This document shows, piece after piece, positions 11,209 to 44,849 of a DNA stretch of 64,000 bases. Numbering within the stretch: the first letter of the stretch is position 1; every line of letters starts with the position of its first letter. The DNA comes from the human T2T-CHM13v2.0 reference genome, Homo sapiens: the NCBI RefSeq assembly GCF_009914755.1, contig NC_060927.1; one strand, given 5' to 3'. Made by a program: the position numbers and the translations under genes. The notes beneath the pieces were generated by a model. The model had not been told where the DNA came from, did no database searches, and saw nothing but the letters and a program-made list of their open reading frames with translations.

Positions 11209-11309
11209 TCAGAATTTCTGTGAATCTTGCTGGAAACGATTTAGTTTCTCTGGATTATTGGATGCCATTTGGGAAAAATCACGAAATATGTCCTGATAAG
11301 TTTCATCAC
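11209..11309 (-). CDS. ACAP2: ACAP2 last coding exon (inferred exon 23): (G)DETYQDIFRDFSQMASNNPEKLNRFQQDSQKF*
   Basis: Acceptor tgcag|GT, phase 1 matches the upstream exon; TGA at 11209-11211. Confidence 0.95.
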
Positions 11310-13741: not shown

Positions 13742-16700
13742 GTAAACATTATAAATATTTTTAAAAGACTATTTAAACTGGATAGTCTGGAATTTTCCTT
13801 TCCAAGAAAGTGTAAAGTGCAGAGTATAATACAAAAATACCACAAAGATTTTACCATTCAACACTAGAAGTAACTTAAAAGGCACACATTATACATTCAA
13901 GAAGAAATAGGAAGAAGGGTCTAGCAGACGTTAATACCAAATAGTCTACAGGTAGCACCAGATGAGCACTGTTAAGTATTACAACAGTACAATGGCAATA
14001 TATGGCTTCTACTATTAGCAATGCATATTTTGTATAACAAGCTATGGAACTTTTTAAATGGTTTCTCCGGTTTTGTTTTTAAATCATCTAGTACCTATTA
14101 CACAAGTATATTTTAGTAGAACCATTGTACCATGCAAAACAAATTATAAGACTCAAATGCTTCCTTGAATGAAAGTGTTGGTGCTATAATAATCATTGGT
14201 TTCACTGACTGAATACATTTAAAAAGTGTTAATATAATACAAAAGGAAGTTGCCACCTTCACATACACACAAAACTTTTTGTTAACATTTAGTTTCTAAC
14301 AAAACATTAATTAATGCACTGTTAATGTACTACCTTTCTTAGATCTCAAAATGTGTTGTCAAAAGCAAATGTTACAAGAACAATAGTGACCAAGATATTT
14401 AATACAGCTAACACAAATTGAACTTCAATGTGATTTTTTAATATTTAAATATAATTTTGATTACTTAGAATTTTTCCCAAGGCAAATATAATTTGTCTAC
14501 ATTGGAACACATAAACAACAACCCAGAATATGCTGCCATGGAATGTTCCCAGAAATACATTTAACAGTTTATTATAAATGGTAAACAACTCATCACTCAA
14601 CATTTATAATACTAAGCATATTCTTTAAACTTAACCACATTCTATTTCCCCTCAGACAGTTAACTTTTCTATGTGCCTGGACAGCTCTAAGTTTTTAAAA
14701 TGCAGACTGCTGTGTTTCCACTGACAGTTTAAATTCACTTTTAATTTTTGGTATTCAGAATATCTACCACAACAGCAGTTATGATGATTCAAGAGTTTGC
14801 TAATTTTGCTCTTGAAATGTACTCCCCTCACCTCACAGGGACGGCAGCACATGAGACCCACCCCAGGTCATCCTATGCACGACCTTACCCCTTCTGGGTG
14901 GGTAACAGCTTACTTTCATAATTACTTAGATCAGCGATTCCCAACTTGTGCTTGCTACATACTCACATAACCAGTAGCGGGTCCCTAAAGCAGTGATGAT
15001 TCTCAACTGGCTGAGAGCCTGCCAACGATCAAGAAGAGTCACAGAGCCAGAGACTGTGGGAACCACCAAACCGGTTTCCAACAACTGAGAGAAGAGTGTG
15101 CTGTTTCCCTCACCCACCCATGTCTCCTAAGGGCTACTGGGACTGCCAAAGAGAGACACACCTTCTTTTGAAGAAAACGTGTGCTCTCAATCACCCCACG
15201 CAAGAAACAGGGAGTCCCAGGTCCCTAGGGTTGTACAGATAGAAAGTTCACAAGTGGGGTTTCCTAGAAATAAATCAGTGATTGCCAAAGATTACATCTG
15301 AATCTTTTAAAGGATAAGAGCTCTTCATTATCAAAAGATTAAAAATACCTGCATTTAATTTACCCAGAGTTCTGAGGTTTTCATTCTATTGCTAAGAAAA
15401 CCAAAAAAGGATCTCAATAAAACAAGCAACCAAAGCATTTGATAGAAAAATGTACAGTGATAAGCAGAGGAAAAACAAACAGCCGCTGCCTGAGCCAAAC
15501 ATACCTGTCTCATAAAGAAAAAGAACAGAAACCGAAGAGCAATTGCTATGCCATTTCACCATGTCCCCTGTCTAAGCATAAAATCATCCTGCTTTAAATA
15601 TTAGGCCCTCTGAATGAGTTAAAAATCTAACCCTTCTCAAGATGATCCTCAAATAAATCAGAAATATCTCAATTTTATTCTGATATACTATTTCCAGAAT
15701 TCTGGTCTATTTTTTAACCTCTAAACTAAAATGTGAGAATGGTAAGAGAGCTTGTTTTAAAATGAGGCTTTTTTTTTCAAGTTTTCATTAAATTAAATTG
15801 GTAAAATCTTTTCTATACATTTTAAGTTTATGTATATATAAACTCAAAAATGACAGTGGAAGACATTTGAATGCTCCTAAATGATGGTGGCAGACACCCA
15901 AACAATTTGGGTGGAACTAGAAGTGGCAAGAACTTAGAGGCCCTTTCCTTTCAAGCTTCCCAACTCCAGAGAAGAGTCGACCACTGACCACCTGGCTAAT
16001 CAGCTGGGTGAACTTCATCAGCAGACACCGTAAGGAAAGAGCAGCTAACCAAACACTGAAGTTAAAAATGTCAGGGGGAAAATAATTGTTTAACTTAAAA
16101 TCGTGAGGTTCACTCTTCTCTTACAAATATCAGGTCATATTCTTTAAACAATTTTTATTTTAAAGTGCTTAAACACAAAGGCCTCAAAAACGGCCTAGTA
16201 ATACTATCAGTTAAGAATATCTGTTATAAAATTATAACCTATTTAAAATCTAACATTCAAGTTTGAAACAAATGGGTGAAATCCAGAATGAACGCTAGAG
16301 CTTCACCCTTCATCAGCACTCTTCCATCTCGGAACATCATGAGCCGCCTACTATTGTATGATCCATAGGATTCAAGTGGGACACCCTAGATTAGAAATAT
16401 CTAGCTGAAGTGCCTCTATTCTTAACGTTCTTACTTGTTCCACATTAAATTAGGCCAAAAATAAGCAGTAGTAAATACGGTCCTCTGAGGAAAGAACGGC
16501 CTCACATTAACTATATATTAATCTCGTTAAAATAAATGGCTGAAGTACAGAAATTTCAAAATGTATTTAAACAGGAAGAAGAGATGATATTACCAGGTCA
16601 CTTTAAAAATAATGTATCAATATTCATTTTTAAAAAACCAAACCTACTCATTGCAAACTGAATATTCTCAAGTATTTTAGTCACGAATTCATGAAATTTT

Positions 16701-17590
16701 TTACTAATGTGTATATAAATTTAAAACAGACAGATGAGTAATTCATATACTCAAATTCATGAAACAAGAAAACCAATAATTACTCTCTTCTTTGTGAAGA
16801 ACGTCTAATCAACGTGTTCTTCAAAGAGAAGAATCTGATACTTCTTCCTTGACATCTTGATTCAAAGGTGAAAATTACTCAAAATGAAACTTGAGGTGAT
16901 CATGAATTGAAATTTCTCAAGTAGAATAAATCTACTTTGCCATCAGGTGCAAAAAGTATTGTTCTAAATACTTCCGCTTATCTAAGAGATAATGTACAAC
17001 TGCCTGGAGGCAAAGCTTTAGCTTTAGATAAAATGAGACCTTTGCCCTCAGCCTTTCAAACTAGCTCCACTCACATCATGGACTTCTCCACCTGGTGAAT
17101 TTTCATTTTAAATCTTCAACTCATTTTTAGATTGTAGTACAAAACTCATCAGTAAACTTTTTCTTGGTATTTTCCATACTGGCTTTTTATATGCCAGACA
17201 CATGGTGATTTTTTTTTTCCCTGAACGTAATTTATAGAAATTCCCTGAATAACAAAAAGAAAACAATTTTGTTATATTCACTTGACAGCTAAAAAGAATT
17301 CCAAAAAGAAAACAACTATTTTGCTGCTGTAAGTATATGAAGAATATTTTTACCATTCCATTCATTTCACTGGAATGTATATGGAAGACATCCGTACAGC
17401 AAATAAAGAAGTCAGCAGCCAGAGTGAAATAGAGCAAGTCAATGTGTACTGTCATAGGAAGAGTTACGAATGTTTAAAGGCCCGGGATTAGCCACCCAAG
17501 GATTCAGTTAAGTACAGTACAAAGCTAACAACTCACAATTTACAAGTGGGTTATAAAAACTCTATAGTATCACATTAGTTTGCTAAAGAA

Positions 17591-17676
17591 CTATGAATCT
17601 TCCAGTTGTAAACTGATAAATTCCTGAATGCATTTCTTATACTGCATTTCAGTATGGTTATTAGTAGAATATTGAC
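17591..17676 (-). CDS. ACAP2: Alternative ACAP2 C-terminus by read-through of exon 22 donor: GQYSTNNHTEMQYKKCIQEFISLQLEDS*
   Basis: Open in frame to TAG at 17591-17593; peptide resembles the ACAP3 C-terminus as recalled (TELQFRRCIQEFISLHLEES); weak donor GTCAAT. Confidence 0.75.
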
Positions 17677-17738
17677 CTGGCTGTCCATAAAGTCCTTCTG
17701 ATTCCCGCATCTCTTCATTCATTCTTGCTAAACGTAAC
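17677..17738 (-). CDS. ACAP2: ACAP2 exon 22: LRLARMNEEMRESEGLYGQP
   Basis: ttttag|G ... CCAG|gtcaat, 62 nt, phase 2/1. Confidence 0.95.
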
Positions 17739-27076: not shown

Positions 27077-27181
27077 TACTACGCAGTTTTGAAGAAGTAT
27101 CAAAGTAGGAGAAGAGTGAATCTAGCTCATCAGGACAAAACAGAGACTCCCGCCTGGCCTCGTCGCTATTTACAGCAATCA
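27077..27181 (-). CDS. ACAP2: ACAP2 alternative cassette exon (105 nt): VIAVNSDEARRESLFCPDELDSLFSYFDTSSKLRS
   Basis: CTAAC branch point (27196-27200), ccccag|TG acceptor, A|gtaagt donor, symmetric phase 1/1, stop-free; motif matches ACAP3 RRDSLFCPDELDSLFSYFD as recalled. Confidence 0.85.
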
Positions 27182-44828: not shown

Positions 44829-44849
44829 CTGATGTGATCGGGCTTTTTC
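44829..44849 (-). CDS. ACAP2: ACAP2 21-nt alternative microexon inserting KKPDHIR into the PH domain
   Basis: Long pyrimidine tract with UGC, then cacgacag|G AAA AAG CCC GAT CAC ATC AG|gtacca; symmetric phase 2/2 matching flanking exons 10/11. Confidence 0.75.

What the first reader, a model, noticed from the sequence alone, without database searches (positions are those of the whole stretch)
17591..17738. ACAP2 hides two alternative C-termini, one ACAP3-like (exon 22 read-through) and one ACAP1-like (exon 23)
Seen: past the weak donor CAG|GTCAAT the frame stays open for GQYSTNNHTEMQYKKCIQEFISLQLEDS-TAG (stop 17591-17593). Knowledge (recalled): ACAP3 ends TELQFRRCIQEFISLHLEES, while ACAP1 ends with a GDETYLDIFRDFSLMASDDPEKL-type tail like ACAP2 exon 23. 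Inference: ACAP2 keeps both ancestral alternative termini, and the paralogs each fixed one (subfunctionalisation of splice forms). A splice-versus-polyadenylation switch would swap the helix after the ankyrin repeats. The canonical 778-aa protein lacks this tail.
Basis: partly seen in the sequence, partly recalled or inferred. Interest (0 to 1): 0.85.

Follow-up and report, generated by a model that had tools for sequence, protein, structure and literature searches.

The report
ACAP2's conserved alternative ACAP3-like tail
Reading past the second-to-last exon of human ACAP2 gives a different protein tail that is nearly unchanged from sharks to humans and matches the normal tail of the sister gene ACAP3; databases already model it, but it appears unstudied.

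Summary
Past the exon-22 donor CAG|GTCAAT the frame stays open for 27 more codons and ends at TAG 17591-17593.

Openness alone is ordinary: 3 of the 14 donors in the window read on for 28 codons or more. The sequence is what matters.
- These 27 intron-coded residues match the constitutive end of ACAP3 on chr1. Score 80, reached by 0 of 20000 shuffles. The last 20 codons hold 14 identical residues, 9 of them through synonymous codon differences.
- They are 27/27 identical in a crocodile, 26/27 in a turtle and Polypterus, and 23/27 in a whale shark.
- The exon-23 tail matches ACAP1 (71% over 28 residues), with the same phase-1 Gly junction.

Human ACAP3 has no exon-23-like relic and ACAP1 no read-through relic.

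The tail is not hidden. RefSeq lists an alternative exon 14418-17738, with ATTAAA 19-24 nt before its end. Many species have predicted ACAP2 isoforms with this tail, some on cDNA-sized contigs.

On any paralog tree, at least one paralog lost a terminus from a two-tailed ancestor. Whether both tails predate all duplications was not tested, because no outgroup was obtained. I found no paper on this isoform.

The parts
17677..17738 (-). ACAP2 exon 22, coding (L)LRLARMNEEMRESEGLYGQP plus the first base of a Gly codon. It is shared by both isoforms.
   Evidence: Hub gene table. The AlphaFold2 models put it in a long helix that continues the last ankyrin repeat.
17671..17679 (-). Donor site CAG|GTCAAT. 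The same bases also encode Gly-Gln-Tyr of the read-through tail.
   Evidence: 7 of 9 consensus matches, with C at +3 and A at +5. ACAP1 has CAG|GTAAAG at the same phase-1 Gly codon. Human ACAP3 has GGC there, so no GT.
17591..17676 (-). Read-through coding segment (proximal or 'P' tail): (G)QYSTNNHTEMQYKKCIQEFISLQLEDS, with stop TAG at 17591-17593.
   Evidence: Homology to the ACAP3 end. Conservation from whale shark to human. Predicted helix over TEMQYKKCIQEFISLQLE at pLDDT 55-69.
14418..17590 (-). 3' UTR of the composite terminal exon. RefSeq lists an alternative exon 14418-17738.
   Evidence: Hub gene table ('exons of other transcripts 14418-17738'); I did not verify it with reads. Seven AATAAA/ATTAAA hexamers lie between 14398 and 16159.
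14437..14442 (-). ATTAAA polyadenylation signal, 19-24 nt upstream of the annotated alternative transcript end at 14418.
11209..11309 (-). Coding part of exon 23 (distal or 'D' tail, canonical): (G)DETYQDIFRDFSQMASNNPEKLNRFQQDSQKF*.
   Evidence: ACAP1 homologue at 71% over 28 residues. Present in the crystallised ACAP2 chain 6if3_A at chain positions 151-174.
27077..27181 (-). Alternative cassette exon coding IAVNSDEARRESLFCPDELDSLFSYFDTSSKLRS. This is a second optional ACAP2 segment whose only other human copy is in ACAP3.
   Evidence: ACAP3 locus, 78% over 23 residues, E 9.6e-6; no chr17 hit. No match in the ACAP1 crystal constructs at E up to 10. Co-occurrence with the P tail in cDNA-like contigs.

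Best explanation
Intron 22 of ACAP2 begins with a real, ancient piece of coding sequence. If the exon-22 donor is not used and the transcript is cleaved inside the intron (RefSeq models an end at 14418, behind an ATTAAA), exon 22 becomes a composite terminal exon. The protein then ends ...GQPGQYSTNNHTEMQYKKCIQEFISLQLEDS instead of ...GQPGDETYQDIFRDFSQMASNNPEKLNRFQQDSQKF. The BAR, PH, ArfGAP and ankyrin parts are unchanged. Only the roughly 30-residue segment after the last ankyrin helix is swapped for a different, also helical, tail. The proximal tail is the orthologous counterpart of the constitutive ACAP3 C-terminus, where the same exon simply reads on and no donor exists. The distal tail is the counterpart of the ACAP1 C-terminus, with the same intron position and phase. 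An ancestor of ACAP2 and at least one of its paralogs therefore carried both termini, and at least one paralog later kept only one. Shown: the sequence, the homology, the constraint, the signals and the absence of relics. Taken from annotation: the human transcript. Inferred: the splice-versus-polyadenylation competition and any functional difference between the two tails.
For: Sequence.
ACAP3 homology:
- Genome-wide six-frame hit at G000:C1:725093-725233, E 3.5e-9, 62% over 48 residues, no stops.
- The ACAP3 exon reads ...RLRLARMAEEMREAEAAPGPPGALAGSPTELQFRRCIQEFISLHLEES* in one piece.
- Last 20 codons: 14 identical residues (5 identical codons, 9 synonymous differences) and 6 conservative replacements.
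- Tail only (27 residues): score 80, reached by 0 of 20000 shuffles.
ACAP1 homology:
- E 8.8e-5, 71% over 28 residues; reached by 0 of 20000 shuffles.
- Same phase-1 Gly junction.
Constraint:
- 823 database proteins at E<=0.01, of which the best 120 were listed.
- In 17 fetched proteins, identity to the 27 intron-coded residues was 27/27 in three (two mammals and Crocodylus). It was 26/27 in turtle and Polypterus, 24/27 in a bird, a sturgeon and a gar, and 23/27 in whale shark. It was 19-20/27 in Xenopus and teleosts, and 14-16/27 in four ACAP3-type proteins.
- Nine tail columns are invariant in a 17-sequence ACAP2+ACAP3 alignment.
Transcripts:
- Seven proteins with the P tail lie on contigs of 1.3-7.2 kb. 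Six of them, of 673-812 residues, sit on contigs of 2.2-7.2 kb, so these can only be spliced cDNA-like sequences.
- The hub table lists a RefSeq exon 14418-17738.
- ATTAAA lies at 14442-14437.
No relics: no D-like sequence at ACAP3, genome-wide or in the 1.5 kb after its stop. No P-like sequence in ACAP1 intron 22 or beyond.
Against: I saw no human RNA, 3'-end, ribosome or peptide data. The human transcript rests on the hub's RefSeq row, which warns that models can be wrong.
Many database isoforms are computational predictions that may lean on ACAP3 homology.
Two of the 26 representative hits I fetched show the frame after QPG without a good tail: P0268 has a decayed version and P0269 an unrelated one. 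The tail is therefore not intact in every source.
The open frame itself is no longer than at 2 of the 13 other donors.
The donor is not clearly weaker than its neighbours by consensus count (7 of 9).
The predicted tail helices have low confidence (pLDDT 55-69). The canonical control model did not reproduce the crystal position of its own tail, so the models say nothing reliable about where the P tail sits.
Confidence: 0.82

Rival explanations
1. Full subfunctionalisation. The single pre-duplication ACAP gene already had both termini (proximal read-through and distal exon). ACAP3 lost the distal exon and the donor. ACAP1 lost the proximal tail. ACAP2 alone kept the ancestral switch.
For: Each ACAP2 tail has exactly one paralog counterpart, and each paralog lacks the other tail. 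A second optional ACAP2 segment, the cassette 27077-27181, shows the same split: present at ACAP3, not found at ACAP1. This version is required if the tree is ((ACAP1,ACAP3),ACAP2).
Against: It is not required by the other two topologies. No outgroup (cyclostome or invertebrate ACAP) and no rooted tree was obtained. The 50%-representative search returned 32 hits; all 26 I fetched looked vertebrate-like, and a 48-residue query has low power.
Confidence: 0.4
2. Stepwise history. The ancestral gene ended in one terminal exon with the proximal tail, as ACAP3 still does. A donor inside the Gly codon and a new distal exon arose later, on the ACAP1/ACAP2 branch, and only ACAP1 then dropped the proximal tail. 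ACAP3 never had two termini.
For: In ACAP3 and in the ACAP2 read-through, exon 22 and the tail are contiguous, which is the simplest gene structure. The donor overlaps coding sequence (GGT CAA TAT) in ACAP2. ACAP1 and ACAP2 share the junction exactly. No D-like relic lies near ACAP3.
Against: After more than 400 My a lost exon would leave no relic anyway, so its absence is uninformative. The two tails show no detectable similarity to each other (4885 of 20000 shuffles reach the score; cross-pairs z -0.2 and 1.1), so the distal exon is not an obvious duplicate of the proximal tail. Topology unknown.
Confidence: 0.35
3. The read-through frame is not translated to any useful extent in human. Its conservation reflects something else, such as a splicing or polyadenylation control element or a 3' UTR, and the database isoforms are prediction artefacts.
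For: No human expression or peptide data were seen here. Openness is unremarkable. Two sources have a decayed or unrelated frame.
Against: The pattern is that of a protein. Nine of 14 conserved residues between ACAP2 and ACAP3 use different synonymous codons, and all 6 replacements are conservative. The frame and stop position are kept from shark to human. Full-length proteins with this tail lie on cDNA-sized contigs. In ACAP3 the same sequence is the constitutive C-terminus.
Confidence: 0.06

Closest known systems
ACAP3 constitutive C-terminus (human chr1 locus, L002; bird and turtle ACAP3 proteins P0065, P0099)
   Same: The same exon start and frame, and the same tail directly continuing the exon-22 homologue. 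Fourteen of the last 20 residues are identical to the ACAP2 read-through, including CIQEFISL, and the stop is at the same place.
   Different: In human ACAP3 the Gly codon is GGC, so there is no donor. No distal exon was detected. The tail is the only ending there, not an alternative.
ACAP1 and canonical ACAP2 C-terminus (PDB 3jue, 4f1p, 3t9k for ACAP1; 6if3 for ACAP2 with Rab35)
   Same: Intron at the same phase-1 Gly codon, and a distal exon starting DETY.DIFRDFS.MAS..PEKL. The ankyrin domain of the P-tail model superposes on these structures: Z 25.4, rmsd 0.7 over 132 residues on 3jue_B; Z 24.5, rmsd 2.2 over 142 residues on 6if3_A.
   Different: ACAP1 intron 22 is about 290 bp and reads GKEYTHPTPQAQH..., with no P-type tail. 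The P isoform of ACAP2 lacks the whole distal segment, which is part of the crystallised Rab35-binding construct.
Composite terminal exons made by intronic polyadenylation (textbook cases recalled: immunoglobulin mu secreted/membrane switch, calcitonin/CGRP)
   Same: A 5' splice site competes with a downstream intronic poly(A) site. Skipping the splice turns an internal exon into a terminal one with a new C-terminus and 3' UTR.
   Different: Here the alternative tail is as old as jawed vertebrates and is the sole ending of a paralog. Regulation and tissue pattern are unknown.
Subfunctionalisation of splice forms among vertebrate paralogs (Lambert et al. 2015, PMC4417111; Abascal et al. 2015, PMC4494069)
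   Same: One multi-isoform gene whose alternative forms each correspond to the single form of a duplicate gene.
   Different: The ACAP genes are not mentioned in the main text of either paper, nor in the 6 supplementary files of PMC4417111 that could be searched (file 1 was not searched). Here the partition concerns alternative last exons, and it is proven for one paralog only.

Membership tests
ACAP family (BAR-PH-ArfGAP-ankyrin Arf GAPs) | The domain set BAR_3, PH, ArfGap and ankyrin repeats occurs in proteins that carry the read-through tail. | tested here: met
   The precomputed Pfam columns give PF16746, PF00169, PF01412 and PF12796/PF00023 for full-length hits ending in the tail.
Composite terminal exon / intronic polyadenylation isoform | The frame continues past a used 5' splice site to an in-frame stop inside the intron. 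| tested here: met
   27 codons, then TAG at 17591-17593.
Composite terminal exon / intronic polyadenylation isoform | A poly(A) signal and cleavage site lie in the intron downstream of the stop. | tested here: met
   ATTAAA at 14442-14437, 19-24 nt before the annotated end at 14418. Six further hexamers follow.
Composite terminal exon / intronic polyadenylation isoform | Transcripts that really end in the intron in human tissue. | not testable with these tools
   Only the hub's RefSeq row (exon 14418-17738) and cDNA-sized contigs from unnamed sources that encode the tail. No 3'-end or RNA-seq data are available here.
Subfunctionalised splice forms among paralogs | Each alternative form of the multi-isoform gene is homologous to the single form of a different paralog. 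| tested here: met
   P tail versus ACAP3 and D tail versus ACAP1 are each reached by 0 of 20000 shuffles. The cross-pairs are not significant.
Subfunctionalised splice forms among paralogs | Each paralog lacks the other form. | tested here: met
   Human genome only. There is no D-like hit at ACAP3 and no P-like sequence at ACAP1.
Subfunctionalised splice forms among paralogs | The unduplicated ancestor or outgroup had both forms. | not tested
   No cyclostome or invertebrate ACAP sequence was obtained. The listings were filled by vertebrates, and of the 32 hits of the representative search the 26 I fetched looked vertebrate-like.
Rab35-binding ankyrin module of ACAP2 (PDB 6if3) | Ankyrin repeats identical to the crystallised construct. 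| tested here: met
   query residues 143-288 align to chain 5-150 with two substitutions, from a non-human source. Z 24.5.
Rab35-binding ankyrin module of ACAP2 (PDB 6if3) | Presence of the C-terminal segment DETYQDIFRDFSQMASNNPEKLNR that is part of the crystallised chain. | tested here: not met
   One search places this segment at chain 151-174. The P isoform replaces it from the residue after Gly. Whether the segment contacts Rab35 could not be read: the paper is not held.

The most novel reading that the evidence does not exclude
ACAP2 is a two-state gene. The long ACAP3-like form (cassette 27077-27181 included, proximal tail) and the short ACAP1-like form (cassette skipped, distal tail) are produced in a coordinated way. 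Because the distal tail belongs to the crystallised Rab35-binding ankyrin module, the switch would turn Rab35-effector behaviour of this Arf6 GAP on or off. On this reading a two-tailed ancestor already carried this switch, and two rounds of genome duplication hard-wired its two states into ACAP3 and ACAP1.
Probability: 0.2. Interest if true: 0.65.

Novelty: new member of a known kind. Interest (0 to 1): 0.4.

Why it matters
The functional work on ACAP2 that I could see rests on the form with the distal tail: the Rab35 complex structure 6if3 and the neurite-outgrowth studies summarised in PMC6358971.

A second ending that has stayed 27/27 identical between human and crocodile must do something. 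It sits exactly where the crystallised Rab35-binding construct continues. If the two tails differ in partner binding, localisation or stability, then knock-down and rescue experiments and variant interpretation for ACAP2 have ignored half of the gene's output.

For evolution, this is a clean and easily tested example of alternative last exons being partitioned among ohnologs. A second optional exon shows the same ACAP3-versus-ACAP1 split.

Tried and rejected
1. Idea that the two tails are tandem duplicates of each other. The local alignment score of 20 is reached by 4885 of 20000 shuffles, and the cross-pairs with the paralog tails give z -0.2 and 1.1. Not supported.

2. Structure. AlphaFold2 models of ANK plus P tail (P0003, 17-row alignment, mean pLDDT 66.1) and ANK plus D tail (P0129, 16 rows, mean pLDDT 79.5) both give a confident ankyrin domain, a loop with pLDDT below 50, and a helical tail at pLDDT 55-69.
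   - The P model aligns to 6if3_A up to model residue 304 and chain residue 755.
   - The canonical control aligns only up to model 164 and chain 749.
   - Tail placement in these models is therefore not trustworthy, and I draw nothing from it beyond 'helical'.

3. Outgroup. The P-tail and D-tail searches listed only the best 120 of 823 and 1223 hits, and all rows that bore a name were vertebrate. The exhaustive 50%-representative search gave 32 hits; the 26 I fetched all looked vertebrate-like. I left the third word-index search unused because it would again list the nearest vertebrates.

4. Literature.
   - No paper holds 'ACAP2' with 'intronic polyadenylation'.
   - The six papers with 'alternative polyadenylation' are unrelated.
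   - The motif CIQEFISL occurs in no paper.
   - Searches on ACAP paralogs and isoforms and on Rab35/ACAP2 structure gave nothing on an alternative C-terminus.
   - Lin et al. 2019 (Structure) and Etoh & Fukuda 2015 (JBC) are not held.

5. Earlier findings of this scan were not open to the session.

Full report
**What is in the sequence**

On the minus strand, ACAP2 exon 22 (17738-17677) ends ...CAG CCA G and is followed by GTCAAT. Read in the exon's frame, the sequence stays open for 27 further codons. It gives LRLARMNEEMRESEGLYGQPGQYSTNNHTEMQYKKCIQEFISLQLEDS and then TAG at 17593-17591.

The canonical continuation in exon 23 (11309-11209) gives (G)DETYQDIFRDFSQMASNNPEKLNRFQQDSQKF*. In both readings the split codon is Gly (G|GT).

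**Is it more than chance?**

The open frame alone is not. I read every one of the 14 annotated donors of the window through in its own phase. The runs before the first stop were 28, 1, 1, 35, 3, 22, 23, 40, 14, 9, 1, 5, 1 and 6 codons, so two other introns read further than this one.

The donor matches the recalled consensus MAG|GTRAGT at 7 of 9 positions, like 8 of the other 13 donors. Its mismatches are C at +3 and A at +5. These same bases encode Gly-Gln-Tyr of the tail, so the site is under double duty.

**Homology to ACAP3**

- A six-frame search of the window's own genome with the 48 residues found, besides itself, one strong match: G000:C1:725093-725233, E 3.5e-9, 62% identity, no stops.
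- There the open frame ends ...RLRLARMAEEMREAEAAPGPPGALAGSPTELQFRRCIQEFISLHLEES*. The homologue of exon 22 and the tail form one uninterrupted terminal exon.
- It starts at the same acceptor phase and has GGC, not GGT, at the Gly codon, so there is no donor.
- Codon by codon over the last 20 residues, 14 are identical. Five use the same codon and 9 use different synonymous codons. The 6 replacements are M/L, Y/F, K/R, K/R, Q/H and D/E.
- For the 27 residues coded strictly by 'intron', the alignment score of 80 was reached by 0 of 20000 shuffles.

This is the signature of a protein sequence kept by selection in both genes.

**Homology to ACAP1**

- The exon-23 peptide hit only itself and G000:C17:7255282-7255365 (E 8.8e-5, 71% over 28 residues).
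- That locus reads ...RLRLAKMREAEAAQGQAG, a donor CAG|GTAAAG in the same phase-1 Gly codon, an intron of about 290 bp, and then cag|GA GAT GAG... = (G)DETYLDIFRDFSLMASDDPEKLSRRSHDLHTL*.
- The score of 101 was reached by 0 of 20000 shuffles.
- The ACAP1 read-through gives GKEYTHPTPQAQHLNSGLLVHGDLSP*, with no trace of the proximal tail.
- Conversely, no exon-23-like sequence was found at ACAP3, either genome-wide at E up to 10 or by a permissive local tblastn of the locus and the 1.5 kb after its stop (best E 0.39-19, short and misplaced).

**Conservation**

A word-index search with the 48 residues against longer proteins gave 823 proteins at E<=0.01, of which the best 120 were listed. The named rows were ACAP2 (many 'isoform X..' predictions by NCBI, UniProt entries) or ACAP3.

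I fetched 13 proteins and compared 17. Identity to the 27 intron-coded residues was:

| Identity | Proteins |
|---|---|
| 27/27 | three proteins: two mammals and Crocodylus porosus |
| 26/27 | a turtle and Polypterus |
| 24/27 | a bird, a sturgeon and a gar |
| 23/27 | whale shark |
| 19-20/27 | Xenopus tropicalis and teleosts |
| 14-16/27 | four ACAP3-type proteins |

In a 17-sequence ACAP2+ACAP3 alignment, nine tail columns are invariant: T, E, Q, Y, C, E, F, I, S.

Against universal conservation: among the 26 hits I fetched from the 32 found by the exhaustive 50%-representative search, 23 carry a recognisable P-type tail and one is a D-tail protein matched only through exon 22. One (P0268) has a decayed tail and one (P0269) an unrelated read-through.

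**Is it expressed?**

I could see no human RNA or peptide data. The hub's table lists a RefSeq exon 14418-17738 among 'other transcripts'. The sequence has ATTAAA at 14442-14437, 19-24 nt before that end, and six more AATAAA/ATTAAA hexamers between 14398 and 16159.

Independently, seven proteins with the tail come from contigs of only 1.3-7.2 kb. Six of them, of 673-812 residues, lie on contigs of 2.2-7.2 kb; for a gene of more than 20 exons these can only be spliced, cDNA-like sequences. So mRNAs of this form exist in some vertebrates.

Intron 22 is the last intron. The stop therefore lies in a terminal exon whether the transcript ends at an intronic poly(A) site or retains the intron, and no nonsense-mediated decay is expected (inference).

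**What it does to the protein**

Only the segment after the last ankyrin helix changes. AlphaFold2 models of the two forms give the same picture:
- a confident ankyrin domain (pLDDT above 90);
- a long helix through exon 22;
- a loop with pLDDT below 50;
- a helical tail: P tail residues TEMQYKKCIQEFISLQLE at pLDDT 55-69, D tail as two helices at pLDDT 55-60.

The ankyrin part superposes on ACAP1 (3jue_B: Z 25.4, rmsd 0.7, 132 aligned) and on 6if3_A, 'Complex structure of Rab35 and its effector ACAP2' (Z 24.5, rmsd 2.2, 142 of 159 aligned). The control model of the canonical form did not reproduce the crystal position of its own tail (the alignment stops at chain 749). I therefore take only 'helical' from the models.

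The crystallised ACAP2 chain contains the distal tail (DETYQDIFRDFSQMASNNPEKLNR at chain 151-174). A passage in PMC9308819 says ACAP2 meets Rab35 through three parallel helices. A passage in PMC6358971 reports that ACAP2 N610A/N691A does not bind Rab35. I recall, but could not check because the paper is not held, that the C-terminal helix is part of the Rab35-binding module. If so, the P isoform would differ in Rab35 binding. This is a hypothesis, not a result.

**History**

The P tail is shared by ACAP2 and ACAP3, and the D tail with its intron position by ACAP2 and ACAP1. On every rooted tree of the three genes, the node joining ACAP2 to its nearest paralog must therefore have had both tails. 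At least one paralog lost one of them.
- ((ACAP1,ACAP2),ACAP3): ACAP1 lost the P tail.
- ((ACAP2,ACAP3),ACAP1): ACAP3 lost the D exon.
- ((ACAP1,ACAP3),ACAP2): both lost one.

Whether the unduplicated ancestor already had both needs an outgroup, which I could not get. That the three genes are whole-genome-duplication paralogs is recalled, not tested.

The two tails are not detectably related to each other (4885 of 20000 shuffles reach the score).

**A second, parallel case seen in passing**

The alternative cassette exon 27077-27181 codes IAVNSDEARRESLFCPDELDSLFSYFDTSSKLRS. Its only other human copy lies in the ACAP3 locus (78% over 23 residues, E 9.6e-6). There is none on chr17 and none in the ACAP1 crystal constructs.

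Among cDNA-like contigs, 4 of 7 P-tail proteins carry it, against 0 of 16 D-tail proteins that cover the site; 3 more D-tail contigs do not cover the site. The hypergeometric chance is 35/8855, but the contigs come from unnamed, possibly related species and are not independent. This hints that ACAP2 makes a coordinated 'ACAP3-like' long form and an 'ACAP1-like' short form.

**Known or new?**

The isoform is in the annotation (hub table), so it is not hidden. I found no paper that describes it:
- searches;
- ACAP is absent from the main text of Lambert et al. 2015 and Abascal et al. 2015;
- it is absent from the 6 searchable supplementary files of the former (file 1 was not searched).

Partition of splice forms among vertebrate paralogs is an established kind (PMC4417111: title, start of the abstract and term look-ups only). 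Composite terminal exons are textbook. I rate this a new member of a known kind.

**Verdict**

It is overstated on 'hidden', and 'each paralog fixed one' is unproven. Interest is moderate (0.4): an ultra-conserved, unstudied alternative ending at a functionally relevant spot of a studied protein.

Noticed in passing
window 27077-27181 (-): An alternative cassette exon codes IAVNSDEARRESLFCPDELDSLFSYFDTSSKLRS. Its only other human match is in the ACAP3 locus (G000:C1:727015-727083, 78% over 23 residues). There is none at ACAP1. It shows the same ACAP3-versus-ACAP1 split as the two tails.
   Followed up: partly
proteins P0017, P0019, P0031, P0032 versus P0137-P0158: On cDNA-sized contigs the cassette occurs in 4 of 7 proteins with the proximal tail and in 0 of 16 with the distal tail that cover the site. 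Cassette inclusion and tail choice may be coupled. The contigs are from unnamed, possibly related sources, so the count is only a lead.
   Followed up: partly
window 44829-44849 (-): A 21-nt alternative micro-exon, flanked by ag and gt, reads KKPDHI in frame 2. It is present in 24 of the 270 proteins held; the 12 printed include both P-tail and D-tail search hits.
   Followed up: partly
proteins P0268 and P0269: In two unnamed database proteins the frame after ...GLYGQPG continues with a decayed version of the tail (remnants SPTE.QY.K..QEF) or with an unrelated peptide. These may be lineages that lost the proximal tail, or poor sequence.
   Followed up: no
protein P0052, Xenopus tropicalis: The proximal tail diverges at its end and runs 11 residues longer (...EEFISIQLGDTMSLGSKTSK). 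The stop position is therefore not fixed in all tetrapods.
   Followed up: no
window 24146 and 33456 donors: Read-through frames of 35 and 40 codons follow two other ACAP2 donors. They look like hydrophobic, low-complexity intron translations. I used them only as a chance control and did not search them for homologues.
   Followed up: no
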